Below are positions 1,823 through 20,423 of a stretch of 64,000 nt of DNA, one piece after another. This stretch comes from a virus: the IMG/VR virus record IMGVR_UViG_3300011441_000007, one strand, 5' to 3'. The notes beneath the pieces are model-generated. The model had not been told where the DNA came from. It did no database searches and saw only the letters and a program-made list of their open reading frames with translations. Positions within the stretch are counted from its first letter, which is position 1. Every line of letters starts with the position of its first letter. The position numbers were made by a program, and so were the translations under genes.

Positions 1823-2038
1823 TTATGTAATCCAGTTCTTTCCTATTGGCCCCAGATGAGAATCTTTGTATTCTAGTGCTACTATTCTTTTTTCCAATTC
1901 TTCTACTCTTTTTTCAAGGCGTCGTCTTTGAAGAATTGCTTCTTTTTGTAATTTATATCGCTCTAATTCATGCTCATTTTTATTTATGATGACTTTTGTA
2001 ATGTCATCTTTTATGAAACCTTCTTTATCAGTTTTCAC
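1823..2038 (-). CDS. small coiled-coil protein
   Basis: 71-aa charged, heptad-like ORF (RRRLEKRVEELEKRIVALE). It overlaps the upstream gene by 4 nt, suggesting translational coupling. Confidence 0.35.
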   Translation of the reverse strand: MKTDKEGFIKDDITKVIINKNEHELERYKLQKEAILQRRRLEKRVEELEKRIVALEYKDSHLGPIGKNWIT

Positions 2039-4776: not shown

Positions 4777-4797
4777 ATGATTTTCTCTTTTCTGAAG

Positions 4798-7700: not shown

Positions 7701-9750
7701 GATCAATAGTGCGATAGATATATGTGGCCTGATTGGAGTTTTTTATGGACTCCAAACCTGATTTGAAAACCAGACCATCGTTCTGTTGGCTTGAAACTTT
7801 GGCAATATTGGCTTGTGTTGTCGGATCAAAGCTTAGAATAACGTCAGCAATGCCTTTGTAAGTCCCATCATACCCAATGGCACGAATATCTTTGAAGTTA
7901 CGGCCTGTATCCATAGTAATATCAAATAGATAAAGTCTGTAAATGGCCGCAGGGTCGCCAGCAACACCATCCTCCAGATTCATGGAACGAATGCGTGCTG
8001 TGCCAAACTGTGTTCCGACCGGCGTTGTGTTGCCAGCCTTCACTAAAGCTGTGTTGGAACAAAATCCTTTGGCTGTGTTATAGAGTTGAACCGTGTCGCC
8101 TGTGGAAAACTGAAAGAGCCCCCCGACTTCTTTACAACGCACAAAGGCATCGTAATTCAAGCTGACTTTATGTGTATTAGCAATTTGTGTATCTAGACCT
8201 TTGGGAACATCAATACGGAAGTTGAAATTGGTCTTGACTTTTCTTCCTGAGATGTAGCCAGCGCCAGCGTCCACAACAGCTGTATAAAGCAAACCTTCAT
8301 TTTGCATGTTGGCTGTTGAAACTGTTGTGACAAGGAAAGGATCAAGAACGAAGTTACCAGCGGCATCAAAAGTGCGCTGTGACATTTCATCCCCGATCTT
8401 GGAATAATCAGAGAGTTGGTTTTGTTTATAGGGATTACCATCGTTCCATTCAACAAGCGTGTAGAATTCTGGAGTTTGTTTGGCTTCAACAATATCAAGG
8501 ATTGTGAGAACGGGCGTGAGTTTCAGACGATTGGCGCCGGGCGCATTTTCATCTTCCAACCCGATAGAATTATCCAAAAGCGAAGGATCAATATTGGAAT
8601 CAATAATCTCTTCTACTGTTTGGAAACCAACAGCCACAGCATTAGGAGTTGAAGAATACTTGTCAACGATAACGACTTGATTGGCAACTCTTTCAAAGTA
8701 GCCCTTCTGGAAAATAACACCATTAGAAACACTAAATGCATAACCATTGCCAACCGAATCACCAGCCGCCGCAACTTTGACTTGGGCTAGAAAATTCAAG
8801 GCCGTGAGTTCCAGCGTTGAAAGTCCTGTTGCATTGTTGGGGGAGAAAACTGTTACCGTAGGTAGATAGATATAGCCCACGCCGCGCGAGTTGATGATGA
8901 TTTCTGTGATACGGCCTGAGGAGTTTGTGCGTAAGAATCCCCCAGCGCTAACACCAGCAACCTTGTCAATAATAGCTTCAGCTGTGTTTGCTTCGTTCTT
9001 GATGGAGTCTTCAACAGCGAAAGTCCAGGTATTGGTGTTGGCCGTGTCCGCTGTTAAGTCTTCAATGCGCGGAGAGATATAAAGAATGCTCTGATTGGAA
9101 ACAGCAAGTGTAGATGTATCTATTGAGAGAATTTCAACGTTGGCGCCAGTTATTGGATTGATAATAAATTCACCAGGAGAAAATGTTCCACTTTCATAGC
9201 TGATAACCAAAGCTGAAAGGAAAACTAGACTGTCGCTGTTAGAAAAGCCCAGACCACCATTGTCAATATCAACAGAGAAAATAGAGTTGTTGGAATCATA
9301 GATGGTCAGAAGATCGCCGGGCGTAAAACCTTCGTCTTGTCCTGATGTTCCTGAGTTGATAAGATTGACATAAATCGTTTTCAGATCAGGTGCCGCAGCC
9401 TCAAAGCCATCAACGCTATTAATAACATAAGCCACAAGACCATTGGCGTTGTTCGCAAACATGCCCACATAAAGTGAAGGATCAACTGTTGTTCCTTTTT
9501 GTGTGTTGTCAACAAGTTTCACATAGTTGTAATGCTTATGAAAATTGAAAGAGCAGCCATCAACAATCGTGCCTTGCTTGAAGATGTTCAGGCCGAAACG
9601 CTCAATCTGTGCTTGTACCAGGGTTTGTAGTTGATTGAGTTCGCGGACCTGAACACTTACTCCAGGGCGAAAGAGAATCTTATAGAAATCTTTTTTGGGA
9701 TCGTAATTATCGTTATAGGGACTGATTGAAAGGTCAGTATTAATAGGCAT
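4798..9750 (-). CDS. giant tail-fiber-like structural protein (1650 aa)
   Basis: 4.95-kb ORF with beta-rich Asn/Thr/Gly composition and an internal PNTNPNTTPNTTPNT peptide repeat. The size class matches T4 long-tail-fiber or gp7-type proteins. Confidence 0.55.
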   Translation of the reverse strand: MPINTDLSISPYNDNYDPKKDFYKILFRPGVSVQVRELNQLQTLVQAQIERFGLNIFKQGTIVDGCSFNFHKHYNYVKLVDNTQKGTTVDPSLYVGMFANNANGLVAYVINSVDGFEAAAPDLKTIYVNLINSGTSGQDEGFTPGDLLTIYDSNNSIFSVDIDNGGLGFSNSDSLVFLSALVISYESGTFSPGEFIINPITGANVEILSIDTSTLAVSNQSILYISPRIEDLTADTANTNTWTFAVEDSIKNEANTAEAIIDKVAGVSAGGFLRTNSSGRITEIIINSRGVGYIYLPTVTVFSPNNATGLSTLELTALNFLAQVKVAAAGDSVGNGYAFSVSNGVIFQKGYFERVANQVVIVDKYSSTPNAVAVGFQTVEEIIDSNIDPSLLDNSIGLEDENAPGANRLKLTPVLTILDIVEAKQTPEFYTLVEWNDGNPYKQNQLSDYSKIGDEMSQRTFDAAGNFVLDPFLVTTVSTANMQNEGLLYTAVVDAGAGYISGRKVKTNFNFRIDVPKGLDTQIANTHKVSLNYDAFVRCKEVGGLFQFSTGDTVQLYNTAKGFCSNTALVKAGNTTPVGTQFGTARIRSMNLEDGVAGDPAAIYRLYLFDITMDTGRNFKDIRAIGYDGTYKGIADVILSFDPTTQANIAKVSSQQNDGLVFKSGLESIKNSNQATYIYRTIDQTTATGNNGILTKSIAGNPNEFFPYSGTLSNSQMQELYVVPLANNLVAFNNYAGDVTVNTTSNQAIGTATTFLTDVAAGDYLYFFPNNTVFDIKKVVSVVNNTMLVLEAPFTFANAVTNYKRTFPKNLPVPFGPRSGLTANVDANGNILTLNFGMTFDATTSTNTALGVNILRQAATSTSKTANRSQLVKLRLANNTANTVGPWCLGVSDIFRLRNVYIGDSTVNTASIAVTDDFYIDHNQNKNYFDLSFLYKKPRSELSLASADYLLIEFDYFTPAGAGYFDTVAYLHTANSEQIASLDSLPLANLSSAAASFEVPELYTAKGEHFDLLNCIDFRPSVNASATPTTNAATAPINPVHTISFGNTADPANDKKFPLSDSLFTADIEQYMGRVDSIVVGSDKNIVVIRGMSSADPAKRFEVNQPKDTLKLQIINVPPYPDVAKNMSIDVLQIISTGVWNERNLNTRLREHTITPIIDITSVKYTQPRGYNMAKIGQLERRIENLEYYTSLSLLETNLTNKIIPSSIDGSLNRFKFGMFVDDFSTTIYSDIENPQYAAGIETVDQANNSVTANDLPMLKSNLLVPPGFHWPLRHVTAGFGPAHVDFLLIDQNNATVSKPNTNPNTTPNTTPNTGIAEVSLQTNSIFYYRHFDWNLGTTGVNYGDGMTFIPGLCRHVSNLEFSTSAGKATIWTFKEYAGGANIKVYQDDVLVADNVAEEAITMAESRALLLDPYTRRFFVDPVMEQFDLDNLTWMIQEKTNKLNFNHNPVFGTNYRFVTEGVAGNGFLYYRWMLRYPMDVTINTGLIIDPDPNANPTIYWGTMKIKVLMNGAPAPDSGAFDLIEMKCTGLKPRTRHNLFLDGIGESSNVKPLGGQLGDPLVTDVGGSLTIYFYPDDLWFNKVKNAKLPQFPVPYQFPGTTQIGNSGDPILSEGYEYNFVPSYALFELKGVNSIAYDDVPLILPNKYLFSR

Positions 9751-9760
9751 TTATTAGCTT

Positions 9761-11773
9761 TCAGAAGTTGAAAATGAGTTGGAAAACTTCAGTTTGATTC
9801 TCTTGGCGTTCAATAGCATCCATGTTCTCAAGATAAATGATGACTCCTGTGTTATAAACAAGTTCGGGTAGTAAGGCATTATTTATGAGAGCAATCGCCC
9901 CGGAATTGACGCCCATGACTTCTCTATTTATCTCAAAAATCCCAACTTGGTTAGAAGTATAGATTGTAATATTACCTCCATCAACGATAGCAGTATGCAG
10001 CAAACCATTGGCTGAAGGATCAGACTGAGTAACAATCTCATTCTCTTGGAAGTTATTGAAAGTCAACTCGCCTGTGAATTTATAAAGCTGGATGAAAGTT
10101 TCATAATTCTTGATTACATCATTATGAGAAACTGCATTGATAACAGCTGTTGCGCCAGACTGTAAACCTATAATAAAATCGTCTTTGACCATCTGTTGTG
10201 CTCCGCCAACGTTTGTACAATGAATCAGTGAAGATGTAATAATATGATCAACCCAAGCGCAAGCTAGAGTATTTGCTGTCATAATCTCAATAGTTGAGCA
10301 GGAAAAGAAACCATTCACTGTGAGATTGAAAGCTGTGGCATTTATGACATTATTCACAATGCCAAGTTGGTTTCTTGTAGCGCCATCAGTCAGATATACA
10401 TAATCGTTGGCTGAAAGTCGTTTTGTAAATTGGCCATTGGAAGCTGAAACCATATGTGATGTGGTGTTCATGGTGGCATTCAAACAAATTGAGAATGGAT
10501 TGATCTTCTCTACTTGCTCGCCCACCAGAAACAGACCGACTGTGTTTGCCAGTTCAAAAGCAACGTTAGAAAACTTTGGATTCTTGATAACCCCGACCTG
10601 TTGAAACTTGTTGGTGGTCAGGATCGTATTGAATTCAGAATTGGAAAGCTTCAGGGATATTTCAGCCGCAGACGACATGAGTTCAGCCGCAGCATCATAG
10701 CCATGACCTTTTGGGGGAGAAATAATGGGCCGCAGTTCAGCCGTTCTAGTTACGCCCACAACAGCATTTGCTATCACATTTGCTATCATATAGTTGTAAT
10801 CGGCCCCGCGCTCAAACATTTCAACACGGAAAATACTATTTCCTGAGAGGGAATTCACCAGCGCTCTAGCTTCTGCTTCAACTGTTTCTGAGCCCGAGCC
10901 TGTAATTGCAACGCGCGGATAGATTTCATAAGCCGTGCCATTGAAAGGCTGGATTGGAAACACATCTTCCAGAACGATAAAGTTGCCCGAAGCATTGCAG
11001 AAATAGTTATTGACAGTCATATGCTGACCTGAACCTGGACCAGAAGCCAGATATAAAGAGCAGCCTGTATAAAATCCATTAACCTGGGAAGCAACACTAT
11101 TCACAAGGCGATAAGTCAAGTCATCATCAATACGACAATCCAAGGTGGCGAAAGTTCCAGTAAGATAATTATTGTATCTCAGACCGGGGTTATCAATTTT
11201 GATAACGTCAATGGCACCTACGATAGCTCCATTTGTAACTTCAGTATTTGCAATCACTGGAAAGTATGTACCAGTCTTCCATTTTAATACCCGCGCATTG
11301 GATATAGAATACATATACTTCCAAACATAACCATCACTCGTTCTATAGAAATCAGTATTGGCCCCAGAAATGTCAGCGAAATTTGGTTCAATTGTAGAGT
11401 TGGCATCCATGTTATTGTCTAAGCATTTGAAAACATGATAGAAAGAGGATGCATTGACTACGGCATAGAAGTCTTTTTCTTTGAGTTCCACAAGATCGTC
11501 ATACATATCATAGACTTTATTGGATTCATAAGGAATATGACGAATCATCAAAGCTACGTCTTCTTGTCTTATGCGCTTGCCTTCAATCATGTTGCGCCGC
11601 GCATGGTGCTCAACAAGCTGAATATCTTCTAGAGGCTGTAGTTCTGTATTGGAATGGTTTGTATGATCGGAAATAAAGACATAGTAGGAATCATCAGCAA
11701 AGGACGCAAGAAAGTTTTCAGAGGTTTGGTGTTTCCAATTGTTAGGAATAAGCTGAGTGTTCGTGCTTGACAT
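9761..11773 (-). CDS. virion structural protein (670 aa)
   Basis: Long ORF contiguous with the fiber genes. No specific motif recognised. Confidence 0.5.
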   Translation of the reverse strand: MSSTNTQLIPNNWKHQTSENFLASFADDSYYVFISDHTNHSNTELQPLEDIQLVEHHARRNMIEGKRIRQEDVALMIRHIPYESNKVYDMYDDLVELKEKDFYAVVNASSFYHVFKCLDNNMDANSTIEPNFADISGANTDFYRTSDGYVWKYMYSISNARVLKWKTGTYFPVIANTEVTNGAIVGAIDVIKIDNPGLRYNNYLTGTFATLDCRIDDDLTYRLVNSVASQVNGFYTGCSLYLASGPGSGQHMTVNNYFCNASGNFIVLEDVFPIQPFNGTAYEIYPRVAITGSGSETVEAEARALVNSLSGNSIFRVEMFERGADYNYMIANVIANAVVGVTRTAELRPIISPPKGHGYDAAAELMSSAAEISLKLSNSEFNTILTTNKFQQVGVIKNPKFSNVAFELANTVGLFLVGEQVEKINPFSICLNATMNTTSHMVSASNGQFTKRLSANDYVYLTDGATRNQLGIVNNVINATAFNLTVNGFFSCSTIEIMTANTLACAWVDHIITSSLIHCTNVGGAQQMVKDDFIIGLQSGATAVINAVSHNDVIKNYETFIQLYKFTGELTFNNFQENEIVTQSDPSANGLLHTAIVDGGNITIYTSNQVGIFEINREVMGVNSGAIALINNALLPELVYNTGVIIYLENMDAIERQENQTEVFQLIFNF

Positions 11774-11799: not shown

Positions 11800-12216
11800 T
11801 TATATCTTATTTATCAGGGGATTTTCAAGGATAGTTCTTAAAGGTTTAGTTTTATTTTCTATACTTTCCCCGCGTGCTTTCAGAGCTTTGTAATTATGAT
11901 AGATGACTTTGCCCTTGTTCTTCCAGTGATCCACAGCGTCAACCCCCACAGCTGTCCCATAGAAGGCCGCTGGTAGGGCGCCAGCCGCCAAAGCTCCCAC
12001 AGCCGCCCCCTTCAAACCCGTGCCTGTGGCGGCCCCTGTGCCAGCTCCAGCGGTAGCCATAGAAAGAGTCCACCCTATCCCTTCAGCAGCACGGTGCCGC
12101 CAACGATCAGAAGAGCGTTGAACATCCCTGTTGTTATTGGCCATCGCGTTGGCTTTTTTGATTCGCTCCCAAGTTGAAAGCGGAGTTGGTTTTGGCGTTC
12201 TTGGTCGTCTTGCCAT
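11800..12216 (-). CDS. glycine-zipper membrane-like protein
   Basis: 138 aa with the segment MATAGAGTGAATGTGLKGAAVGALAAGALPAAFYGTAVG (GxxxG zipper) and basic termini. Confidence 0.5.
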   Translation of the reverse strand: MARRPRTPKPTPLSTWERIKKANAMANNNRDVQRSSDRWRHRAAEGIGWTLSMATAGAGTGAATGTGLKGAAVGALAAGALPAAFYGTAVGVDAVDHWKNKGKVIYHNYKALKARGESIENKTKPLRTILENPLINKI

Positions 12217-12228
12217 TTGTTTTACCTC

Positions 12229-13230
12229 TTAAAAATACCTATGATAAATGTCCCCAAGTCTATGAAGATCGCCATGAGAATTAGAAATATCTTTTTCTAC
12301 ATATTCTCTAGCGTGTAACCAACTTGGATGAGAAGACTTATGTTGAGGACCAAAATGTTTATCCATTATTTGCATAAGACTTTCATGTAAACCTGGACTG
12401 AAGTCTTTGGACAACACAACTCTTAAATTATGATGAATAGCGGCAGCTAAGTCTAGAAAATGTTCTTTAGAACCAGGTTTTCCTTTTTCTAATGATATTG
12501 GTTTCTTGGTTTTGGCAGCATCCATCGCGGCCATGTGATTATGAAACAAACCACCAATACCATGATAATGAGAACGATTGGATATAAGGGAATCAGCTGT
12601 TTGTTTATCAGAAGTATTCATGTTTCTATAGTGTTTAGCAGCTTCATCGTAATCTTGATACATAAAGGCATGGCCAAGCTTATGAAAATGACTTTCAGGA
12701 TTCACATTTAGTCTTTTCAAATCGCGCCCAATTTCTCTATGCACATCCCCAATGGATTCTGTAAAAGAAGATTGTTTCCAATCTTCTGTAATATCTCTGA
12801 GCTTCTTTCTTTTCCTCAGAGAGTGTTTAATTTGACTTACAGTTAAGTTCAAATCGCTGGACATTTTTGGATAGAGGCTTCTGGATCGTGTTTGCATTGA
12901 TTTATACATTGAAATTTCTCTATCCCCGCCGCCTTTTTTGTAGTTCTTGCGGGCGGCTTCAACTTCAGCATCGCGTTTTGTATTCAATGGGCGTCTTTTT
13001 CCAGACTTTAAACCAAGCTTATCTTTATGTTTCGTCAAGAATACTCTAACGGAGCCATGAGCAAGCCCTTCTTTCTTCGCTATATGTTTTCCAGGCAGAC
13101 CATCGCGAATATAGCCTTTCCATCTTTCAATTTTGTCAGCGTCGTTCCAACTTGATCCTTGGGGATTAGCTCTTAAAGCTTCCAGAGAGTTTGGGTGTTT
13201 ACCAGGGCGGTGTTCGCTTTTCTTACGTGG
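12229..13230 (-). CDS. His-rich repeat family protein with N-terminal HTH
   Basis: The ORF is open to 13284. A start at MPRKK (13230) avoids a 61-nt overlap with the upstream gene. It has an HTH-like GLPGKHIAKKEGLAHGSVRVFL and His-rich modules (SHYHGIGGLFHNH, KEHFLDLAAAIHH). Confidence 0.55.
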   Translation of the reverse strand, partial: PRKKSEHRPGKHPNSLEALRANPQGSSWNDADKIERWKGYIRDGLPGKHIAKKEGLAHGSVRVFLTKHKDKLGLKSGKRRPLNTKRDAEVEAARKNYKKGGGDREISMYKSMQTRSRSLYPKMSSDLNLTVSQIKHSLRKRKKLRDITEDWKQSSFTESIGDVHREIGRDLKRLNVNPESHFHKLGHAFMYQDYDEAAKHYRNMNTSDKQTADSLISNRSHYHGIGGLFHNHMAAMDAAKTKKPISLEKGKPGSKEHFLDLAAAIHHNLRVVLSKDFSPGLHESLMQIMDKHFGPQHKSSHPSWLHAREYVEKDISNSHGDLHRLGDIYHRYF

Positions 13231-13768
13231 CATGGAAATTACTGTCCCATATTCTAGGAAAATGTTGGGGATCATCAGTTGCATCCGTCATAACACCTTC
13301 CATGTGAGGCCAAACATGATCATCGTGCTTGAATTTGGATCGGAAGTGAGCTTTTAGTTCATGATGTAGATTAGCAAGCTTCTGAAGATGTGTGGTTTGA
13401 TTCATGTCATCTTTATCTATCCCCAATTGTCGGTATTTGTGAGCTAGTTCAAAGAAATGCTCCTTGGAACCTAATTCTGCCTTGCCCCATGATTTGTTTA
13501 TTCTGTTCTGCCATGTTTTGTGCTGGTCATGATAAAGCTTATGCACATCATGATAATGGGAATGTGCCAATAGATGTGTATTAAATTCATCTTTGGTTCT
13601 AGCATCAGACATATTATAGTGTTTGTTGGCTTCATCCCAATTCTGATAGCGTAAGGCATGAGCGAATGGTTTGGCTTTAGAGGATGTGGCGTTATTTTCA
13701 ATATTCCGGGCGACTTCTCTCCAAACATCGCCAATAGATTCAACAATTTGTCTGAGATTCTTAACCAT
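13223..13768 (-). CDS. His-rich repeat family protein with CTS-like N-terminus (MVKNLRQIVE)
   Basis: 181 aa. It carries the modules AHSHYHDVHKLYHDQHK and KEHFFELAHKYRQ shared with its neighbours. The first 10 aa resemble the T4 internal-protein capsid-targeting sequence and end in I-V-E. Confidence 0.55.
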   Translation of the reverse strand: MVKNLRQIVESIGDVWREVARNIENNATSSKAKPFAHALRYQNWDEANKHYNMSDARTKDEFNTHLLAHSHYHDVHKLYHDQHKTWQNRINKSWGKAELGSKEHFFELAHKYRQLGIDKDDMNQTTHLQKLANLHHELKAHFRSKFKHDDHVWPHMEGVMTDATDDPQHFPRIWDSNFHAT

Positions 13769-15971
13769 TTTTGTGCCGATAATAGATATCTTCTAGTTTG
13801 TCATGATCGCCGCCTGAGTCCATTATCTCTTTATGAACGTCTGCTTGTTTCTTATGATTCTGTTTTGGATAATGAGAAGGGAAATGATATTCCAAATCAC
13901 TAGCATAATTGCCCCATCTTGGAGAATTTATATCATGATAGGAATGAAAGTAACCTGTAGCAAGCTCAATGAAATGCTTACGCTTAGCTGCATGCTCATT
14001 ATTCTCGGGCTCTGCTACTTTGGGTTTGGACCGATTTTCCATATCTGCCATGTGTTGATGAAATTGCCCATGGATATCATGATAATGGGAGTGCAACTTT
14101 AGAAGACCATCAATTAGAGGCCGCGCTCCGGAATTTGATTTGAAGTGATGAGCAGCGGCATCCAGGTTTCCATATTGATAAGCATCATGAAATCCTTTAA
14201 GAGCTTGATGTGTTTGTGGTTCTGTAATTCCGGGGAGAATAGTTTTGATTTTACGCACGACTTCATGACGCGGATCGTTGATGCCTTCAGAAATGCGCTG
14301 TTGTTTCTTCTTAGCTTTATTGGTTTTATTAACAACAACACTGATAAGTTTTTCTGTATGACCTAACTCTTCAGCTGTTTTTGCTCTGAAGTTTCTATGA
14401 ATGTTTCTATATCTATCAAGAGTTCCTATAATCTCAGCATTTCTAGCTGTGTTTCTTGGGCGCTTTTGTCCTTTGGGTTTGTCCCCTCGGCCTAGAGCAT
14501 CTTTATTCTGTGTAATAATGTTGGCAACTGTTTGATAATGATAACCAGTAGCTCGCCCAATCTCTTTAGCAGATTTTCCATCGGCTATATGTTTCTTCCA
14601 GGCTTCAATTTCATGAGGTTTGAGAGTACGTGCTGCTTCATCAATTTCATTGGATTGGGTCATTTCAACAAATGCTGAAAAGCCTCGTTTGGATTGTAGT
14701 TGAAGACTTTCCTTAATATCGTCATAATCAATAACATGACCGCGAACATGCGTCATATTGCGCCAAGCTCTGACTTGGGTGCGATGATTCCCATCCACTA
14801 GGAAATGCTTACCGCTGGCCAATTTAATGAAAACAGGGAACCTTGGCTTGTTCTCGCCCCAAGTGCGCATGATCTTGGCTTTGACAATATGGGAAAAAAC
14901 ATTGGTTTGACCTGAAATAATGGAATCAAGCGGAACATTTGAAATTGGGTAATCTTTTTGGAACAGGCGGCGTCTTGAAGTTTCATGGGCCGCATCTACA
15001 GCATGTTGATGACCTTTGGGATGGAATAGCTTTGCATTGGGAAACTTGATAGCTGTTTTAACAAAGCCCGATGGATTGTTTGGAACAGCATTGGCAACAG
15101 TATCAACCCGCGCCGCTGCTTTCTCTTTGGATAGAATCTTCTTAGCTTCCCCCAATTGAACATTATGAATATAGTCGCTGTATTTGGCTTTTTTCTCTGT
15201 AGATTTGCCCCCGAATTTTTGAATCAAACCTTTCGCTGCTCTTCCTGCGAGTTTATGTCTGTCTTTAGATAATGAATCAAACTCCAGTTGTTTGGGTTTA
15301 ACTCTGGACACAAAACGATGAAGAGTGCTGTTTATATGATGAAGGATTGCTAGTTTATGTTCTCTTGAAACTATGGAATGCTTACCATGTCTTCCATTGA
15401 CTTGATAATCTACATGATATTTCTTAGGTTGATCTGAATATTCTCTAAAAGCAATATCAATCTTATGAGGACCGATTTGAGTGCTATGTTTTACAGCATT
15501 TATATCAGATTCAGGTCTTTTATGTATTTCGCGTTTCCAAGCTTCTTTTATTCCAAATAATTGTTTCCCAACTTTATCGCCGCGCTCCATGCGTTTGTCA
15601 TCAGCAGCCATTTTATCAAGTCTGAGTTTATCACGATGCCAATGTCTGTCATTTGGATGAGGTTTGTAATCTTTATCACCTCCCCCACGCATGTCTCGCA
15701 TTATATGACGCCGAAATACTCTTGATTCTTTGTTAAACTGACCCCATTTGGTTGCAATCGGAGCTTGTGTTAATTTCTCTTTGAAACCAAGTTTACCTTG
15801 TTTGACTTTGCGAGCATGACGCCATTGGTCTAGTTTTGATCCGCCCATAGCACCAGCCATCGTTAAAACCCCGCTGGTATTAATGCCATGTCTGGTTTTC
15901 AAGTAAGCATCGGCCGCAATACCAGCTGTTCCTAAAAGTCCCATTCCAGCATTGCGACGAAATCTACCCAT
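13761..15971 (-). CDS. multidomain protein: Gly-zipper N-term, ParB-like nuclease motif, HTH, C-terminal His-rich repeats
   Basis: 736 aa. The N-terminus is GMGLLGTAGIAADAY...MAGAMGG. The middle has KHFLVDGNHRTQVRAW (ParB/Srx-type DGxHR motif) and an HTH (GKSAKEIGRATGYHYQTVANII). The C-terminus has HSHYHDIHGQFHQHM and KRKHFIELATGYFHSYHD. Confidence 0.6.
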   Translation of the reverse strand: MGRFRRNAGMGLLGTAGIAADAYLKTRHGINTSGVLTMAGAMGGSKLDQWRHARKVKQGKLGFKEKLTQAPIATKWGQFNKESRVFRRHIMRDMRGGGDKDYKPHPNDRHWHRDKLRLDKMAADDKRMERGDKVGKQLFGIKEAWKREIHKRPESDINAVKHSTQIGPHKIDIAFREYSDQPKKYHVDYQVNGRHGKHSIVSREHKLAILHHINSTLHRFVSRVKPKQLEFDSLSKDRHKLAGRAAKGLIQKFGGKSTEKKAKYSDYIHNVQLGEAKKILSKEKAAARVDTVANAVPNNPSGFVKTAIKFPNAKLFHPKGHQHAVDAAHETSRRRLFQKDYPISNVPLDSIISGQTNVFSHIVKAKIMRTWGENKPRFPVFIKLASGKHFLVDGNHRTQVRAWRNMTHVRGHVIDYDDIKESLQLQSKRGFSAFVEMTQSNEIDEAARTLKPHEIEAWKKHIADGKSAKEIGRATGYHYQTVANIITQNKDALGRGDKPKGQKRPRNTARNAEIIGTLDRYRNIHRNFRAKTAEELGHTEKLISVVVNKTNKAKKKQQRISEGINDPRHEVVRKIKTILPGITEPQTHQALKGFHDAYQYGNLDAAAHHFKSNSGARPLIDGLLKLHSHYHDIHGQFHQHMADMENRSKPKVAEPENNEHAAKRKHFIELATGYFHSYHDINSPRWGNYASDLEYHFPSHYPKQNHKKQADVHKEIMDSGGDHDKLEDIYYRHKNG

Positions 15972-16339
15972 TATCGTGGTTCTTTTACCAGCTTGTAGTT
16001 ATCATGGCCGAGTTTACGCTTTGCAACATTATGAGCTTGGGTTGTATCATTATCAAGGAAGCGATCAGCTAAACGCTTGTCGCTGGTCCATTTGTCTTTA
16101 TCGGGCTGAGCAGTATAGGCAAGGTGATGTAGATATTTGCTGCCTGATTTCACAAACAGATGATGTGTTGTGCTAGTTGAGGAAGTTTCAGGTTCAGTAT
16201 TATTACCAATAGAGTCAATAAACTGTTGTTCCTTAGCTGACAAAGCGGTATTAATTTTTTTTGGTTGTTTAGGTTTTGGGGCCATTGTCTCTGGTTCTCT
16301 TCCTAGAATAGATCGGATAAACTGGCGAAAGGACTTCAA
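15971..16339 (-). CDS. small basic protein with CTS-like N-terminus (MKSFRQFIRS...)
   Basis: 122 aa. The N-terminus MKSFRQFI parallels MKTFKQFIDE of 19066..19452. Confidence 0.45.
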   Translation of the reverse strand: MKSFRQFIRSILGREPETMAPKPKQPKKINTALSAKEQQFIDSIGNNTEPETSSTSTTHHLFVKSGSKYLHHLAYTAQPDKDKWTSDKRLADRFLDNDTTQAHNVAKRKLGHDNYKLVKEPR

Positions 16340-16343: not shown

Positions 16344-17006
16344 TTACACCATTATTCCAACGCGCCGGGGAGTACCAGACGCATCATTCACGATAATATA
16401 GCCAGCGAGTGTTGTTGTGGTGTTGGCAACAAACGTGCCAAACTGCAAAGTTCCTGTGGTTTGAATGAGAGAAGAATTAACTGAAGAGTTGACTGTGCTG
16501 TTTCCAACTTTCAATTGTATGGCAGAAATACTCAAGTTTCCATTGAGAGTAACTATACTGGAGTTCATAAAAGCATTGACTGTGCTGTTACCAACGCCAA
16601 TAGAAATAGAATTGATAGAAAGATTAGCAAAGGAAAGCGTAGAGCTATTCGCAACGGCATTGACTGTTGAGTTTCCAATAGAAAATCCAGTCAGGGATAC
16701 TTGAACATTGAGGCCAAGAGCTAAAGTAGAGCTATTGATAGAAGAATTGACTGTGCTGTTACCAATTCTCAGATGCGTGGAGTTTCCAAAGAGATTAGAA
16801 GATGTGTTACCTAACCAAAGCGAAGTAGCAAAGAACAAACCATCCATTCTTCCGCGAATGATGCTGTTCTCAACATTACCCATGCAGAAGTTGAAGAAAT
16901 TGGAATTGGCATCTGCGCCCCCATCTTCAACTTTAATACGAATGGAGTTGAAAACCGAGGAGTTCGCCCAAACATCTGTGATATCATAGAGAAATGTGTT
17001 AGCCAA
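16344..17006 (-). CDS. tail-fiber-like repeat protein (GNSTVN repeats)
   Basis: 220 aa with at least 5 copies of a G-N-S-T-V-N-[AS]-x-x-N-S-S unit. It is a paralog of 804..1817. Confidence 0.5.
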   Translation of the reverse strand: MANTFLYDITDVWANSSVFNSIRIKVEDGGADANSNFFNFCMGNVENSIIRGRMDGLFFATSLWLGNTSSNLFGNSTHLRIGNSTVNSSINSSTLALGLNVQVSLTGFSIGNSTVNAVANSSTLSFANLSINSISIGVGNSTVNAFMNSSIVTLNGNLSISAIQLKVGNSTVNSSVNSSLIQTTGTLQFGTFVANTTTTLAGYIIVNDASGTPRRVGIMV

Positions 17007-17062: not shown

Positions 17063-19138
17063 TTAGTCTCTATATGTGATAATTGGGTTTCCAGCCCGAT
17101 CAAATATAATGTCACCTTCATCTCTATCAAACAGCCAATCATTCACACTTGTCTTGGTTGTTATAATCGTCTCATCAATAGTCAAGTTCGCTGCGATTTC
17201 AGTTTGATGCAAAAGCGCGCCAAACATCTGCGTTCCAGCAAAATGCATGACTTGCCGCATGATTTCTTTATATTTATCCAGAGCGATAGAGCTACGAATC
17301 TCATAAGAATACTCCTGATAATAGAAACCATCATAGAGTTTTTTCTGATCGGAGAGAAAACCACCCTTCTCTCTATAATAGCCCGAGCCTTTGCCCTGTT
17401 TGCCAAGAATAGCAACGCCTGTGGTTTCAACGCCTGGATTGGTATTGGAGAAGATCATAACATTCTCCTGCTCAATATAACCAAATCCTGAATCAATGAC
17501 CTGGAGGCCAGCAATAGCTCCGTTGCCAGTCTTCAGCTTGGTTTCTACATCAAAATTCAAACCGACAGCATGCGTGTTTTGATCCACGATCTGTAATTGA
17601 ACATTGGCTTCGGCGCCGGAGTTTTCCCCAACGATAGTAGTTGTTGAGTTGATTGTTGGAATGAAATGCTCATGGACTCGCAACCTTTCCAGGAATAATC
17701 CAGAAGAGTTATTGGTTTTTACGATTCCCCTGGCATTCGTAGCTGCTTGGGTAACAGTTTCTCCAATCTGAAATATACCATCGGGAGTGTCAATTTTTAA
17801 TATAATATCTTCATTGTTGACACCAGCCGTAAGTTGATCATAGATGCGAACATAAGGCGCAATGGAATATTCCCTTCCGGGGTTTATGTTTGTGATTTCA
17901 ACAAGCTTGCCAACAGTTTCAGAAGCATAAGATAAAACAGCAGCCACGAAAGTATTGGTAAGATTAGCAGTAGCATTAGCAGGGAAACCATAAGCTGTAG
18001 CTTCCAAAGGAACAAAAAAGTAATCGCGACAAAGATCAGAATTAACATTTGCTGACTCCGTGAAGATGATATTGTTGACGGATACATTGATAGATGCATC
18101 AATACCTGAAGATATAAAGCGTATTACTGCATTTGTATTTGAAACATTACCAGTAATATAATTGAACTCATTATTAACGAAGGCGCCGCTGATATCAATT
18201 ACAGCTACATCCATTTCAATTTCAGAAAGTATGCCTGTGGTATCTGATGATAAACCTATGATCGTTGCATTTTCCGCGAAGAAACCACGATGGTTGATAA
18301 TTTCCAGAGTCGCGTTGCCGCCCAGAATATTTGAGATATCTGCAATCGTTGCCCGGCCGATAACAGTATTGTTGGCATTGCGCGCTTCAATATTCTCATT
18401 GATTAAAAAGCTACTTGAGGAATTAGAAATATGCAAGGTGCGCTCAGAGCTTGTCGCCATAACATTCGCTGTGGCATATTGATTGACATAAGCATTGGAG
18501 GCGGCTTGGTTTGCAACAATCGCATTGGCTTCAGTGAATATCTGAGCTGAATCCAGATTACCAGAGTAAACGAAGACTTTCAGTTCGCCCGTTGTGGAAT
18601 TGGCCGGCGTGACCTGGAATATCTTACCAAAGCCTTTCTGATCGTTATTGGCATGGTAAGTATAAAGATTGGCGCCGACTTGTGCTGCTAGATTACCTGA
18701 GGCCGAACGATAATTGATAGCGACTTTAGGTTGTGTTATGGTTTCAAACAACTGCCAATAATGTTTCGGGGTAGAATTGGGCTGAAGATTAGCAACAGAC
18801 AAAACAGATTCAGAAATAAGAACGTTGGCGACATTGGAATAAGCATAGCCGAAGTTGATTGGATTGAAGATAATGAGGCCAGCGATATTGAGGACTTCGG
18901 TGATAATAGCCTTGCCGCCGATGCCCTGTAAGCCTGTCAGTTCAACGATATCGCCTTTGGCATAGCCCTCGCCTACACCATCGGAATCAACGACTACACC
19001 TGTCAAGGAACCTGTAATGTAGGGACAAATCTCAATATCAAGAGGAACAGAATTAGATGTCATTATTATAAGGCCGGTGGCATTCCTTTGTGTTTGAAGA
19101 TATAATGTAACACATGCAACGCTTCCATATGATGCCAA
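17063..19138 (-). CDS. virion structural protein (691 aa)
   Basis: Long ORF rich in N/T/S/G, in the structural gene orientation. Confidence 0.5.
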   Translation of the reverse strand: MASYGSVACVTLYLQTQRNATGLIIMTSNSVPLDIEICPYITGSLTGVVVDSDGVGEGYAKGDIVELTGLQGIGGKAIITEVLNIAGLIIFNPINFGYAYSNVANVLISESVLSVANLQPNSTPKHYWQLFETITQPKVAINYRSASGNLAAQVGANLYTYHANNDQKGFGKIFQVTPANSTTGELKVFVYSGNLDSAQIFTEANAIVANQAASNAYVNQYATANVMATSSERTLHISNSSSSFLINENIEARNANNTVIGRATIADISNILGGNATLEIINHRGFFAENATIIGLSSDTTGILSEIEMDVAVIDISGAFVNNEFNYITGNVSNTNAVIRFISSGIDASINVSVNNIIFTESANVNSDLCRDYFFVPLEATAYGFPANATANLTNTFVAAVLSYASETVGKLVEITNINPGREYSIAPYVRIYDQLTAGVNNEDIILKIDTPDGIFQIGETVTQAATNARGIVKTNNSSGLFLERLRVHEHFIPTINSTTTIVGENSGAEANVQLQIVDQNTHAVGLNFDVETKLKTGNGAIAGLQVIDSGFGYIEQENVMIFSNTNPGVETTGVAILGKQGKGSGYYREKGGFLSDQKKLYDGFYYQEYSYEIRSSIALDKYKEIMRQVMHFAGTQMFGALLHQTEIAANLTIDETIITTKTSVNDWLFDRDEGDIIFDRAGNPIITYRD

Positions 19139-19452
19139 GCCGCTGGATGATGATCACGAAACTTACTTATAGCTTCTCCTACATGGCGCATTGAATGTGT
19201 TATTCTTTCATTTTCATTTGGAATTCTCAGGGAATCTCTTGTTTTAACAAATGCATCTGGATTATTTTCATGAGTCCAGTTTATGAAGTGCTTTAGGATT
19301 GCAGCCTTATCCTTAGCCGATGTTGTTTCTTTCTCAGGCGCATTATCTTTATGAAATGCTGGTTTCTTTGGCTGTTCTTCTGGCGCAGGGGCTTTCTTCT
19401 TCCTCCACCACGAGAATATACCTTCATCTATAAATTGCTTGAATGTTTTCAT
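19066..19452 (-). CDS. internal-protein-like packaged protein (CTS MKTFKQFIDE)
   Basis: The N-terminus MKTFKQFIDE|G is nearly identical in pattern to the T4 IPIII CTS MKTYQEFIAE. It is His-rich (HHPAAWHHMEALHVLHY) and contains a KHF motif. Confidence 0.55.
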   Translation of the reverse strand: MKTFKQFIDEGIFSWWRKKKAPAPEEQPKKPAFHKDNAPEKETTSAKDKAAILKHFINWTHENNPDAFVKTRDSLRIPNENERITHSMRHVGEAISKFRDHHPAAWHHMEALHVLHYIFKHKGMPPAL

Positions 19453-19453
19453 T

Positions 19454-19828
19454 TTACTTCCGTTTTGGTCGTCGTTTTAGAGCTTTGTTTATCATATGGA
19501 TATTGTTGTAATGGTAATATAGATCATCAACAACACCAGGATTATGAATTAAACGAGTTGCTAGTTTACCTAGTTTTTCCCCTCGCTCGCCTTTTCTATT
19601 TAATGCTTGCAATTTACGACCAAGAGGGGCAGTTAATGCTACTGTTGCTCTTGAAATAGCTCCTTTTAGTCCTGGAGAATTAACACTGAAATGCTCATTG
19701 TCTCCTTCCCCACTTTTAGCTACACGTTTATTATGATGATTATAAATTTTTTGAGCACGGAGCCAATCCTTATCGCCCCAAGTCTTTCTTATTGATTCAT
19801 TAATGATTTCGCGTAGTTTCTTAGACAA
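19454..19828 (-). CDS. internal-protein-like basic protein (CTS MSKKLREIINE)
   Basis: 124-aa basic protein. Its N-terminus parallels 28029..28505 (MKKLREILTE). Confidence 0.5.
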   Translation of the reverse strand: MSKKLREIINESIRKTWGDKDWLRAQKIYNHHNKRVAKSGEGDNEHFSVNSPGLKGAISRATVALTAPLGRKLQALNRKGERGEKLGKLATRLIHNPGVVDDLYYHYNNIHMINKALKRRPKRK

Positions 19829-20423
19829 TGTTTATTTTCTCCCCCGTTACGAAATTACCAACGATGGTAGAAATATAGATTACATCAATAAATTTACCTT
19901 GGACCGTGCGACGAATAACTCTCTCAACAAACGCTGTTGCCCCCGAAGTCAAGCCAACGATTTGCTTGCCAATGAACTTGATATTATGCTCGGAAAGAGA
20001 AACTTCCAGATATTGGGGAATCACCCACTTGCCATCGGACAATCTGAATATGTCTTCATGGGGAAAGTAGACTTCAGCGCCAACGCCAAAGACCAACTTG
20101 AAAAGAAGATCAACGCCGCGCTCTGTTCCCTTTGAGCGATAAAGATCAAGGGAATGCTTTACGAGGTTTCTGACGTTGGTATGCGATGTGATTGGGATAT
20201 TCTTGAGGTATTTTTCCTTGAAATGGACCAGAAACTCTTCCAAGGATTCATCAATGTCTTTGATTTCAGGGAGACGGCGTGTATACCAGAGAGGATTATT
20301 CGTTTCCTCCAGCCATTCATAATAAGCTTTAACAAAGGCAACGAAAACAGGCCCATCTTCTCTGACATGGGCTGGAAACTGTGATTCAATTAATGGCGAT
20401 AAGAACTTCTCTAATGTATCCAT
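19821..20423 (-). CDS. hypothetical protein (200 aa)
   Basis: Clean ORF between the internal-protein genes. No motif recognised. Confidence 0.45.
   Translation of the reverse strand: MDTLEKFLSPLIESQFPAHVREDGPVFVAFVKAYYEWLEETNNPLWYTRRLPEIKDIDESLEEFLVHFKEKYLKNIPITSHTNVRNLVKHSLDLYRSKGTERGVDLLFKLVFGVGAEVYFPHEDIFRLSDGKWVIPQYLEVSLSEHNIKFIGKQIVGLTSGATAFVERVIRRTVQGKFIDVIYISTIVGNFVTGEKINIV

What the first reader, a model, noticed from the sequence alone, without database searches (positions are those of the whole stretch)
13761..15971. 736-aa fusion of Gly-zipper, ParB-like nuclease motif, HTH and His-rich repeats
Residues around KLASGKHFLVDGNHRTQVRAW carry the DGxHR core of the ParB/sulfiredoxin nuclease-like fold. 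About 60 aa later, GKSAKEIGRATGYHYQTVANII is a textbook HTH. The N-terminus has GxxxG glycine-zipper segments and the C-terminus has the His-rich repeat module. A DNA-binding or DNA-nicking protein that looks membrane-interacting and sits among putative packaged proteins is an unusual architecture. One possibility is a DNA-end or ejection-associated factor.
Basis: partly seen in the sequence, partly recalled or inferred. Interest (0 to 1): 0.7.

Follow-up and report, generated by a model that had tools for sequence, protein, structure and literature searches.

The report
Fused T4-type internal head protein cargo
This 736-residue phage gene strings together five small modules, including a ParB/sulfiredoxin-like fold and a DNA-binding helix-turn-helix, that elsewhere occur as separate proteins carrying the tag phage T4 uses to load proteins into its head for injection, and every joint keeps the head protease's cutting motif, so it is probably an injected multi-tool that may be cut into pieces.

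Summary
The ORF (13761..15971, minus strand, 736 aa) is real and is kept intact in three metagenomic relatives.

**Domains**
- The DGNHR segment belongs to a minimal ParB/sulfiredoxin fold. Pfam misses it. A family profile hits SbnI and ParB in the PDB (E 0.002 and 0.005), and the AlphaFold model hits sulfiredoxin, Noc, ParB and SbnI.
- The HTH is real and bipartite.
- The "glycine zipper" is weak: one GxxxG and no membrane-like hydrophobicity.
- The His-rich part is a paralogous all-helical module of unknown fold, not an internal repeat.

**New context**
- The host is a divergent T4-like myovirus. The gene sits in a lineage-specific insert between the gp7-like and gp8-like baseplate genes.
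- Free-standing homologues of three modules (GNAT-like, ParB-like, His-rich) start with a leader equivalent to the T4 capsid targeting sequence. A matrix trained on those leaders picks IPIII, IPII and IPI out of 801 starts in T4.
- Five of the six (L/I)xE prohead-protease motifs in the ORF lie at module junctions (shuffle P about 3e-4).

**Best reading** (confidence 0.5): a polyvalent internal-head-protein fusion that is packaged, probably cleaved, and injected. It is a new variant of a known kind.

The parts
13761..15971 (-). Whole ORF, 736 aa, pI 10.0. Five-module polyvalent protein.
15543..15971 (-). Module 1, aa 1-143. Arg/Lys-rich (23%) with Gly/Ala-rich segments at aa 8-26 and 33-45. No capsid-targeting leader. 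Ends ...QLFGIKE143|AW.
   Evidence: It has one GxxxG, a maximum KD19 of 0.79 and a leader-matrix score below 7 bits. It was not modelled.
15147..15542 (-). Module 2, aa 144-275. Truncated GNAT-fold domain (four strands, helix, strand, helix, two strands; no alpha1-alpha2 arm). Ends ...NVQLGE275|AKK.
14709..15146 (-). Module 3, aa 276-421. Helical lead-in plus a minimal ParB/sulfiredoxin-fold domain (core aa about 340-421). Ends ...DYDDIKE421|SL.
14781..14795 (-). DGNHR motif (aa 393-397), aligned with DGvHR of SbnI and GERR of ParB. This is the phosphate-binding loop of the fold.
14637..14708 (-). Linker, aa 422-445, bounded by IKE421| and IDE445|. It is shorter in P0004.
   Evidence: pLDDT is below 50 in model 2.
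14286..14636 (-). Module 4, aa 446-562. Bipartite HTH: HTH-1 at aa about 452-488, then a basic RPRNT linker, then HTH-2 at aa about 530-550. Ends ...QQRISE562|GIN.
   Evidence: Pfam HTH_38 at E 2e-4, below the cut-off, plus HTH_23, HTH_28, HTH_29 and GerE. The profile against the PDB hits the two-HTH protein 2lvs at E 0.007 across both halves. Model 2 shows a three-helix bundle. The module is paralogous to aa 51-170 of ORF 12229..13284.
13764..14285 (-). Module 5, aa 563-736. His-rich (12%) all-helical module of unknown fold. Invariant positions include E-x-I-x-D, SH and HF.
   Evidence: Alignments A6 and A7. Model pLDDT is 80-90 for most of the module. There is no PDB sequence or fold match. 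Only two further family members were found.
13223..13768 (-). Downstream paralogue, 181 aa. A free-standing His-rich module with the 10-residue leader MVKNLRQIVE|S. That leader holds its only (L/I)xE site.
12229..13284 (-). Downstream paralogue, 351 aa. Bipartite HTH plus His-rich module, 29% identical to aa 454-733 of the 736-aa ORF.
   Evidence: (E 3e-25).
11800..12216 (-). 138-aa basic protein with a true glycine zipper (GAGTGAATG and others; KD19 1.49).
15971..16339 (-). Upstream 122-aa ORF starting MKSFRQFIRS. The leader is CTS-like (14.0 bits) but lacks Glu10.
19066..19452 (-). 128-aa ORF starting MKTFKQFIDE|G. It has the best capsid-targeting-like leader in the window (26 bits) and lies between the two gp7-like pieces.

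Best explanation
The gene encodes a polyvalent cargo protein of a divergent T4-like myovirus. It concatenates five modules: a basic Gly/Ala-rich N-terminal region, a truncated GNAT fold, a minimal ParB/sulfiredoxin fold, a bipartite HTH, and a His-rich helical module.

**Shown**
- The five-module anatomy.
- Three of the modules (GNAT-like, ParB-like, His-rich) occur in related uncultured phages as separate 114-200 aa proteins whose first ten residues are equivalent to the T4 capsid targeting sequence.
- The gene lies in a tightly packed same-strand run with the baseplate genes gp7 and gp8.
- (L/I)xE followed by a small residue is conserved at every module junction and is nearly absent elsewhere.

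**Inferred**
- The protein is made late and enters the prohead.
- The gp21-type prohead protease cuts it after Glu143, 275, 421, 445 and 562 into IP-sized basic fragments.
- The fragments stay with the DNA and are injected with it.
- In the new host the ParB/Srx fragment binds a nucleoside triphosphate through its DGNHR loop and the HTH fragment binds DNA. They act on incoming or host DNA or on host defences.
- The GNAT-like and His-rich fragments are further effectors or decoys of unknown target.
For: **Context**
- gp25, gp6, a split gp7, gp8, gp53, gp48, gp2, gp26 and gp32 homologues are present.
- The gp6 homologue matches 2361 T4-type phage records. The nearest are Cr30, phiM12, Melnitz and HTVC008M at 34-37% identity.
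- In Cr30, gp7 and gp8 are adjacent, so window 11.8-17.0 kb is an insert.

**Modules**

**Leaders**
- 35 of 57 homologues start with aromatic-4, aromatic-7, aliphatic-8, Glu-10.
- The T4 CTS is MKTYQEFIAE (PMC8442874). Its targeting determinants are at residues 4 and 7, its processing determinants at 8 and 10, and gp21 cuts after L/I-x-E (PMC9026906).
- A matrix built only from the metagenomic leaders scores the T4 CTS at 15.6 bits. Over 801 ATG starts in T4 nt 1-100000 it ranks gp61.1, IPIII, IPII and IPI first. The next score is -0.2.

**Junction motifs**
- o736 has 6 (L/I)xE sites, 5 of them at junctions. P0002 has 5 of 5 at junctions and P0003 has 4 of 4. P0004 has one in its leader, three at junctions and two elsewhere.
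- In shuffles, P(at least 5 in junction zones) is 2.8e-4 and P(all four zones hit) is 2e-4.
- Across orthologues the middle residue varies while L/I and E are kept.

**Other support**
- The protein has pI 10.0, and every module except the near-neutral His-rich one (pI 7.2) is at pI 10-10.8, like the highly basic T4 IPs.
- The same DGNHR subfamily sits in giant proteins carrying Hydrolase_2, InPase and SNF2-type helicase domains. These are phage-type polyvalent proteins (PMC5512222).
- P1 DdrB, a ParB/Srx-domain protein, is head-packaged (PMC5512222). Alt-family genes sit beside baseplate genes in T4-like phages.
Against: - The 736-aa protein has no capsid-targeting leader of its own. Its junctions keep only the tripeptide, not the targeting residues.
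- The total number of (L/I)xE sites is not enriched: 6 observed against 4.2 +/- 1.9 expected. Only their placement is unusual, and the junction zones were defined after seeing the data.
- No head genes or prohead protease lie in the window, so the protease's presence and specificity in this lineage are assumed from T4-superfamily core-gene knowledge.
- There are no virion proteomics for this lineage. No homologue exists in any cultured phage record.
- The one homologue contig examined (L004) is not obviously T4-like.
- All ParB/Srx and HTH statistics are marginal to moderate (E 1e-2 to 1e-3).
- The T4 late-promoter octamer is not enriched in the window.
- The biochemical activity of every module is unknown.
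Confidence: 0.5

Rival explanations
1. The protein is a single uncleaved chain, a ParB-like DNA-nicking or DNA-end-binding ejection protein. Its HTH positions it on DNA and its glycine-rich N-terminus engages the membrane during DNA entry.
For: - A ParB/Srx fold and an HTH are present in one chain in the canonical ParB order.
- The protein is basic.
- It lies in the structural operon.
- Some ParB/Srx domains are DNases (PMC5512222).
- The protein lacks a capsid-targeting leader.
Against: - The N-terminus has one GxxxG and KD19 of 0.79, which is not membrane-like.
- The domain is the minimal Srx core, without ParB box III or a ParB-type HTH.
- Protease-type motifs separate the ParB and HTH modules in all orthologues.
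- The modules exist separately with head-targeting leaders.
- A gp2 DNA end protector is already encoded at 40098..40736.
Confidence: 0.2
2. The protein is a baseplate- or tail-associated protein, either structural or carried in the tail lumen. It would be expressed and assembled with the wedge proteins that flank its gene.
For: - The gene lies between the gp7-like and gp8-like genes on the same strand with minimal gaps.
- The position is the same in relatives L001-L003.
- Neighbouring small ORFs have glycine-zipper segments like those of some tail and pilot proteins.
Against: - Cr30 has no gene between gp7 and gp8, so the insert is not part of the conserved baseplate.
- The domain content is enzyme-like and DNA-binding, not structural.
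- Homologues and neighbours carry head-targeting leaders.
- T4 ipI lies within a few kb of baseplate genes, and Alt-family genes are reported beside baseplate genes in T4-like phages, although both products are head-packaged.
Confidence: 0.12
3. The protein is an intracellular late regulator or DNA-binding protein that is never packaged. This is the sense of the JGI label "CsgD family transcriptional regulator" on P0004.
For: - HTH hits to LuxR/GerE, sigma-70 region 4 and IS-transposase type HTHs.
Against: - The HTH is about 15% of the protein.
- The modular relatives have capsid-targeting leaders.
- The gene is in the late structural operon.
- The conserved junction motifs have no role in this model.
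Confidence: 0.1
4. The protein is a canonical ParB-type partition or CTP-dependent DNA clamp protein for phage genome segregation.
For: - The order ParB fold then HTH resembles ParB. H. pylori ParB is hit at E 0.005.
Against: - TIGR00180, Noc and ParB_N models are far below their cut-offs even in the closest family members. They do not hit the window protein at all.
- The domain ends straight after the last strand of the Srx core.
- The HTH is of another type.
- The family is dominated by roughly 150-200 aa proteins in which it is the only recognised domain.
- The context is a lytic-type T4-like structural operon.
Confidence: 0.03

Closest known systems
T4 internal proteins IPI, IPII, IPIII (capsid targeting sequence plus gp21 cleavage)
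   Same: - The host is a T4-superfamily phage.
- Free-standing homologues of the modules carry a leader equivalent to MKTYQEFIAE. A matrix from those leaders retrieves the three T4 IPs.
- The proteins are basic, sequence-hyperdiverse, and share only the leader.
- L/I-x-E followed by a small residue is the processing motif.
   Different: - The 736-aa protein has no N-terminal leader.
- It is four to eight times larger than an IP.
- It contains five modules with internal cleavage-type sites.
- None of its folds (GNAT-like, ParB/Srx, double HTH, His-rich) has been described for T4 IPs in the papers read here.
- Packaging has not been demonstrated.
Polyvalent proteins of phages and conjugative elements (Iyer et al. 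2017, PMC5512222), including phage P1 DdrB
   Same: - Several unrelated effector-type domains sit in one polypeptide encoded among late or structural genes.
- The ParB/Srx, GNAT and HTH domain classes are all in that repertoire.
- The predicted life history is the same: packaged, processed into units, injected.
- The same DGNHR subfamily occurs in giant polyvalent proteins.
   Different: - No zincin-like MPTase or other peptidase domain was found. Processing would be done in trans by the prohead protease at (L/I)xE junctions.
- Only one family member (P0041) gives a faint DdrB-ParB Pfam hit at E 0.11.
- The GNAT-like domain lacks the alpha1-alpha2 arm.
Minimal ParB/Srx-fold proteins: sulfiredoxin, SbnI/SerK serine kinases, short single-domain phage ParB-CTPase-fold proteins (PMC12704722)
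   Same: - The core is about 85 aa with the G-x-H/R-R phosphate loop. These are the best fold and profile matches.
- Roughly 100-aa single-domain versions are reported as common in phages.
   Different: - The motif is DGNHR. Asn sits where Srx has its catalytic Cys and ParB has Glu.
- There is no SbnI/SerK C-terminal domain.
- Nucleotide preference and activity are unknown.
Canonical ParB / Noc / KorB CTP-dependent DNA clamps
   Same: - The N-terminal fold is followed by an HTH.
   Different: - No box III, no ParB-type HTH, no C-terminal dimerisation domain and no ParA.
- A probable cleavable linker lies between the fold and the HTH.
T4 Alt (head-packaged, injected ADP-ribosyltransferase)
   Same: - A large (about 76 kDa) non-IP cargo that lacks the IP-type leader, is trimmed by gp21 and is injected.
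- Its gene family is associated with baseplate genes in T4-like phages.
   Different: - Alt is a single enzyme trimmed at its ends, not a chain of modules with internal sites.
- There is no sequence or fold relation.

Membership tests
ParB/sulfiredoxin (ParB/Srx) fold superfamily | Conserved phosphate-binding loop (GxxR / DGxHR) after the central strand | tested here: met
   DGNHR is at aa 393-397. G and H are invariant and D, N and R nearly so in 25 domain copies. HMMER aligns the motif to DGvHR of SbnI and GERR of ParB.
ParB/sulfiredoxin (ParB/Srx) fold superfamily | Significant sequence-profile or fold match to solved members | tested here: met
ParB/sulfiredoxin (ParB/Srx) fold superfamily | Pfam ParB-clan model above the gathering score on the protein itself | tested here: not met
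   There is no ParB-type hit on the 736-aa protein at E up to 1. Only family members give hits, mostly sub-threshold: ParB_N, ParBc_2, DUF6551 and ddrB-ParB. PF23719 scores 33.5 bits against a cut-off of 27 on a divergent copy in P0005.
Canonical ParB partition / CTPase clamp | Full CTPase domain with box III, ParB-type HTH and C-terminal dimerisation domain (TIGR00180-type architecture) | tested here: not met
   There is no TIGR00180 or Noc hit on the window protein. The best family member scores 19 bits against a cut-off of 58. The domain ends after the last Srx strand. The HTH matches HTH_38, GerE and two-HTH proteins instead.
Canonical ParB partition / CTPase clamp | Partner ParA ATPase and parS site | not tested
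   Only the larger window ORFs were scanned. None of those scanned was ParA-like.
T4-type internal head proteins | N-terminal capsid targeting sequence (about 10 aa, hydrophobic at 4 and 7, L/I at 8, E at 10) | tested here: not met
   The o736 N-terminus MGRFRRNAGM does not score, and no internal 10-mer exceeds 6.5 bits. The feature is met by the free-standing homologues of three modules (35 of 57) and by window ORFs 19066..19452 and 35454..36341.
T4-type internal head proteins | gp21-type cleavage motif L/I-x-E followed by a small residue | tested here: met
   Sites are at E143|A, E275|A, E421|S, E445|A and E562|G, all at module junctions. They are conserved in P0002 to P0004. Actual cleavage was not tested.
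T4-type internal head proteins | Presence in the mature head and injection with DNA | not testable with these tools
   This needs virion proteomics on a cultured member of the lineage.
Polyvalent proteins (Iyer et al. 2017) | Two or more unrelated effector-type domains in one polypeptide, encoded with late or structural phage genes | tested here: met
   GNAT fold, ParB/Srx, double HTH and the His-rich module. The gene lies inside the baseplate operon.
Polyvalent proteins (Iyer et al. 2017) | Embedded processing peptidase (MPTase), frequent but not obligatory | tested here: not met
   No peptidase family appears in Pfam, PHROGs or NCBIfam, and none appears in the two models.
GNAT acetyltransferases | GNAT core fold | tested here: met
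GNAT acetyltransferases | N-terminal beta1-alpha1-alpha2 arm and the Q/R-x-x-G-x-G/A acetyl-CoA pyrophosphate loop | tested here: inconclusive
   The model has four consecutive strands and no alpha1-alpha2. By inspection of A4 the loop before the long helix is variable. The semi-conserved Gly there is His in the window copy (REHKLAIL). No Pfam GNAT hit was found. No cofactor docking was done.
Transmembrane glycine zipper | (G/A/S)xxxGxxxG pattern within a membrane-length hydrophobic segment | tested here: not met
   The N-terminus has one GxxxG and no extended pattern. The maximum KD19 is 0.79. No Gly-zipper Pfam hit was found.

The most novel reading that the evidence does not exclude
The gene encodes an internal-protein polyprotein. 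One late translation product is taken into the prohead and cut by the prohead protease at five conserved (L/I)xE junctions. This yields five separate injected effectors: a basic Gly-rich peptide, a GNAT-like protein, a ParB/Srx NTP-binding protein, a double-HTH DNA binder and a His-rich protein. It would be a polyprotein strategy for phage cargo that uses the capsid maturation protease instead of an embedded peptidase. It would also define new fold classes of T4-type internal proteins.
Probability: 0.35. Interest if true: 0.75.

Novelty: new variant of a known kind. Interest (0 to 1): 0.62.

Why it matters
T4 internal proteins are the classic example of injected anti-defence cargo. Their diversity outside the coliphages is almost uncharted, because they share nothing but a ten-residue leader.

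This locus offers three things.

- **A detection method.** A leader matrix trained on uncultured-phage proteins cleanly retrieves the T4 IPs. The leader can therefore be used to mine injected proteins in distant T4-like phages.
- **New fold classes of candidate injected proteins.** These are a minimal ParB/Srx fold, a truncated GNAT fold, a double HTH and a novel His-rich module.
- **A concrete, testable case.** Several such cargoes appear to be fused into one gene and separated again by the capsid protease.

If confirmed, it would link the polyvalent-protein concept to the T4 prohead-protease pathway. It would also give candidate reagents for protein delivery by T4-type capsids.

Tried and rejected
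**Searches on the protein itself**
- Pfam, PHROGs and NCBIfam gave only sub-threshold HTH hits.
- phmmer of aa 277-557 against PDB sequences found nothing meaningful.
- tblastn and megablast against 50,697 GenBank phage records gave no match. Two small homologues also gave none.

**Searches for relatives**
- Word-indexed searches with profiles A3 and A7 added only a few members.
- Contigs of two small homologues (L004-L006) were short and uninformative about phage type.

**The C-terminal half**
- The fold search gave no significant match. The His-rich module remains of unknown fold, and the second HTH was modelled as a low-confidence long helix.

**Ideas tested and dropped**
- The T4 late-promoter octamer TATAAATA is not enriched: 3 found against 3.9 expected.
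- I expected the internal junctions to retain a full capsid-targeting sequence. The matrix scan showed they do not, and only the (L/I)xE tripeptide is kept.
- The apparent leader of ORF 12229..13284 (MIPNIFLE) lies in a 53-62 nt overlap with the upstream gene and may not be translated, so it was not used as evidence.
- The canonical ParB reading was rejected (see the membership test).
- HD-domain and metal-enzyme ideas for the HSHYHD segment have no tool support.
Full report
**1. The observation**

Its start overlaps the stop of the upstream ORF in a TAATG arrangement.

- The quoted ParB-like segment is at aa 383-403, with DGNHR at aa 393-397.
- The quoted HTH is at aa 465-486.
- The last 174 residues are 12% His.

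The protein is not a chance ORF. The identical sequence is on record from three contigs. Orthologues of 93% and 84% identity keep it as one reading frame. A fourth protein, P0004 (750 aa), is 59% identical over the central 300 residues.

Two details of the observation do not hold up.

- The N-terminus has a single GxxxG and no extended zipper. Its most hydrophobic 19-residue window scores only 0.79 on the Kyte-Doolittle scale. The real glycine zipper is in the 138-aa ORF two genes downstream.
- The His-rich part shows no internal repeat in self-BLAST. It is one module that recurs in the next two ORFs.

**2. Genomic context**

The window is part of a divergent T4-superfamily myovirus.

- It encodes homologues of gp25, gp6, gp7 (split in two), gp8, gp53, gp48, gp2, a tube protein, gp26 and gp32.
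- The gp6 homologue matches 2361 T4-type phage records. The nearest are Caulobacter phage Cr30, the Sinorhizobium phiM12 group, Methylophilales phage Melnitz and Pelagibacter phage HTVC008M, at only 34-37% identity.
- In Cr30 the gp7-like and gp8-like genes are adjacent.
- Here about 5 kb (11.8-17.0 kb) is inserted between them, on the same strand and with almost no intergenic space. It holds a 220-aa NST-repeat protein, a 122-aa ORF, the 736-aa ORF, a 181-aa ORF, a 351-aa ORF and a 138-aa ORF.
- Relatives L001-L003 carry P0004 in the same position.

**3. Anatomy of the protein**

An exhaustive HMMER search of 1.84 billion representatives gave 58 hits.

- One group matched query aa about 140-270.
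- A second group matched aa about 330-420.
- A few hits matched the C-terminal half.

- About 35 free-standing proteins of 114-170 aa share this domain.
- An AlphaFold2 model of aa 137-430, built with 57 sequences, has mean pLDDT 83.7.
- This part folds as four strands, a long helix, a strand, a helix and two strands.
- It lacks the alpha1-alpha2 arm, and the window copy does not keep the glycine of the pyrophosphate loop. Catalytic competence is therefore open.

*aa 340-421.*
- Twenty-five aligned copies share V-P-L..(T/S)xQ..V....P.P.....G.H...DGNHR....R......I.G.V.D, with G and H invariant.
- Extra divergent copies in P0004 (DGLHR) and P0005 (DGHHR, twice) bridge to classical ParB-like nuclease motifs.
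- The family profile hits SbnI over the whole domain at E 0.002, with DGvHR aligned, and H. pylori ParB at E 0.005. The search covered 177,635 PDB sequences.
- Members of the family give weak hits to ParB_N, ParBc_2, DUF6551, ddrB-ParB, parB_part, Noc and SerK models.
- The ParB/Srx fold is therefore supported by three independent lines, each of moderate strength. Pfam fails on the protein itself.
- The domain is the minimal Srx-like core. It stops right after the last strand and has no ParB box III.

*aa 446-562.*
- This module is a bipartite HTH.
- Pfam HTH_38 reaches E 2e-4 on the excised module, below the cut-off. HTH_23, HTH_28, HTH_29 and GerE also appear.
- A five-sequence profile matches the two-HTH protein 2lvs at E 0.007 across both halves.
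- Model 2 shows a three-helix bundle for HTH-1.

*aa 563-736.*
- This His-rich module is all-helical, with pLDDT 80-90 over most of its length.
- It has no sequence or fold relative in the PDB.
- Only a handful of family members exist.

*Paralogy with the downstream genes.*
- aa 454-733 is paralogous to aa 51-350 of the 351-aa ORF (29% identity, E 3e-25).
- aa 555-674 is paralogous to the 181-aa ORF.
- P0004 combines two ParB-like copies, two HTH modules and one His-rich module. The modules are evidently shuffled between genes.

**4. The decisive lead: the leaders**

The small homologues of the GNAT-like domain, the ParB-like domain and the His-rich module are unrelated to one another. Yet nearly all start with the same ten residues, for example MKTFKQFVAE, MKSFLQFLNE, MISFRQFLDE, MKTYKEFLLE and MIRFKQFLINE. 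Thirty-five of 57 fit aromatic-4, aromatic-7, aliphatic-8, Glu-10 exactly.

This matches what is published for T4.

- Residues 4 and 7 direct targeting and residues 8 and 10 direct processing. The prohead protease gp21 cuts after L/I-x-E (PMC9026906).
- T4 internal proteins are a hyperdiverse set of injected anti-defence proteins that share only this leader (PMC3012670).

I turned the resemblance into a test. I built a position matrix from 33 metagenomic leaders only and scored every ATG start with at least 50 codons in T4 nt 1-100000 (801 starts).

| Rank | T4 gene | Score (bits) |
|---|---|---|
| 1 | gp61.1 | 23.9 |
| 2 | IPIII | 15.6 |
| 3 | IPII | 15.6 |
| 4 | IPI | 10.0 |
| 5 | next best | -0.2 |

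- In the window the same matrix picks ORF 19066..19452 (26 bits), ORF 35454..36341 (17.9 bits) and the upstream neighbour at 15971..16339 (14 bits).
- A second, related leader type occurs on the 181-aa ORF (MVKNLRQIVE|S), on ORF 19454..19828 and on several proteins in L002.
- The insert between gp7 and gp8 is therefore best read as an internal-protein locus.

**5. The 736-aa protein itself**

It has no such leader. No internal 10-mer scores above 6.5 bits. I had expected full leader remnants at the junctions, and that expectation failed.

What the junctions do keep is the processing tripeptide.

- The protein contains only six (L/I)xE sites. Five sit exactly where one module ends and the next begins: IKE143|A, LGE275|A, IKE421|S, IDE445|A and ISE562|G.
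- In alignments these residues line up with positions 8-10 of the leaders of the free-standing homologues.
- P0002 has five sites, all at junctions. P0003 has four, all at junctions.
- P0004 has one in its N-terminal leader, three at junctions and two elsewhere.
- Across orthologues the middle residue varies while L/I and E persist.

Statistics from composition-preserving shuffles:

| Measure | Value |
|---|---|
| Observed number of sites | 6 |
| Expected number of sites | 4.2 +/- 1.9 |
| P(five or more sites in the four junction zones, 13% of the length) | 2.8e-4 |
| P(all four zones hit) | 2e-4 |
| P(one or fewer sites outside the zones) | 0.10 |

- The count is ordinary, but the placement is not.
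- The zones were drawn from homology boundaries, but after I had seen the sites. The figures are therefore indicative only.
- Four of the five sites fall in coil or low-confidence segments of the models.

**6. Mechanism**

*Shown.*
- The module anatomy.
- The folds of three modules.
- The T4-type leaders on the free-standing relatives of three modules.
- The T4-like context.
- The operon position.
- The conserved junction motifs.
- The basic charge: pI 10.0 overall, and 10-10.8 for every module except the His-rich one (pI 7.2).

*Inferred.*
- Late co-expression with the baseplate genes.
- Incorporation into the prohead.
- Cleavage by the gp21-type protease into IP-sized fragments of 143, 132, 146, 24, 117 and 174 residues.
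- Retention with the DNA.
- Injection.

*Possible roles in the cell.*
- The ParB/Srx fragment would bind a nucleoside triphosphate at its DGNHR loop. Solved relatives use the same loop for ATP or CTP. Phage versions bind ATP, CTP or GTP (PMC12704722). Some are DNases (PMC5512222).
- The double-HTH fragment would bind DNA.
- Whether these two act on phage DNA, on host DNA or on defence systems cannot be told from sequence.

**7. Comparison with known systems**

- The closest concept is the polyvalent protein of Iyer et al. (PMC5512222). These are multi-domain proteins of phages and conjugative elements, encoded among late genes, packaged, processed and injected.
- ParB/Srx domains (phage P1 DdrB, which is head-packaged), GNATs and HTHs are all in their repertoire.
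- The same DGNHR subfamily occurs inside two giant proteins, P0022 (6336 aa) and P0029 (5279 aa).
- The N-terminal half of P0022 carries a cell-wall hydrolase, the polyvalent-specific InPase and an SNF2-type helicase.
- That paper also notes that Alt-family genes sit beside baseplate genes in T4-like phages although Alt is head-packaged. This removes the main objection from gene position.

The differences here are these.

- No embedded peptidase was found.
- Processing would be done in trans by the capsid protease at sites inherited from the leaders of formerly separate internal proteins.
- The folds are new for T4-type internal proteins.
- No paper in the searchable library links capsid targeting sequences with ParB domains.

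**8. Verdict**

The thing is a new variant of a known kind: a polyvalent, internal-protein-type cargo. The polyprotein reading is plausible but unproven.

The main weaknesses are these.

- The protein has no leader of its own.
- No head or protease genes lie in the window.
- There is no cultured relative.
- The remote-homology statistics are only moderate.

Noticed in passing
window 17063..20423 (minus strand): The gp7-like baseplate wedge gene is split into two ORFs. ORF 19821..20423 matches phrog_17744 positions 6-200, and ORF 17063..19138 matches positions 205-740. Two small leader-bearing ORFs lie between them, at 19454..19828 (MSKKLREIINE) and 19066..19452 (MKTFKQFIDE). Relatives L001-L003 show the same split (200 aa, 125 aa, 77 aa, 664 aa).
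   Followed up: partly
L008 18966..19130 (phage T4 NC_000866, gene 61.1): T4 gp61.1, a 54-aa hypothetical protein in the early primase region, starts MKTFKEFIKE. It scores 23.9 bits on the leader matrix, higher than the T4 internal proteins themselves. Whether it is packaged is unknown to me.
   Followed up: no
window 35454..36341 (minus strand): This 295-aa ORF has a capsid-targeting-like start, MITFLEYLYE|S (17.9 bits). It lies next to a phrog_350 tail protein and the gp53 homologue. It has no PHROG match.
   Followed up: partly
window 16344..17006 (minus strand); L002 4627..5457: This 220-aa protein is built of reiterated GNSTVN(A/S)x(I/V)NS(S/T) units and is nearly free of charged residues. 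It sits between the gp7-like gene and the internal-protein-like cluster. It may be a fibre or beta-helix protein. The homologue in L002 is 276 aa.
   Followed up: no
window 20441..21061 (minus strand): This is another His-rich 206-aa ORF, just upstream of the gp7-like N-terminal piece. It suggests that His-rich proteins are a theme of this region.
   Followed up: no
window 40098..40736 (plus strand): This is a gp2-type DNA end protector homologue (phrog_429, E 1e-44). The phage already has the classical T4 DNA-end factor.
   Followed up: partly
window 2035..9750 (minus strand): Two giant ORFs of 1650 aa and 913 aa lie downstream of gp8. They match phrog_358 and Pfam DUF4815 and are of unknown function.
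   Followed up: no
window 12229..13284 versus 13223..13768: The first ATG of the 351-aa ORF overlaps the end of the 181-aa ORF by 62 nt. A later Met (MPRKK..., nt 13236) would reduce the overlap to 14 nt. The true start is uncertain.
   Followed up: no
L002 5720..6427 and 6429..6734, 9765..10286: In the relative carrying P0004, glycine-zipper modules come in several forms. One has its own leader (MKPLREILNE|KYW...). Another is fused upstream of an internal full leader (...LSFKEFLSE|AFRG) in a 235-aa protein. That protein is a second example of an N-terminal Gly-rich region placed ahead of an internal-protein module.
   Followed up: partly
proteins P0005, P0022, P0029: P0005 (528 aa) carries three ParB/Srx copies, two of DGHHR type and one of DGNHR type. 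P0022 (6336 aa) and P0029 (5279 aa) are GC-rich giant polyvalent proteins that carry the DGNHR subfamily near their C-terminal third.
   Followed up: partly
window, whole: The T4 late-promoter octamer TATAAATA occurs only 3 times, against 3.9 expected. None lies in the baseplate or internal-protein region. This lineage may use a different late-promoter consensus.
   Followed up: partly
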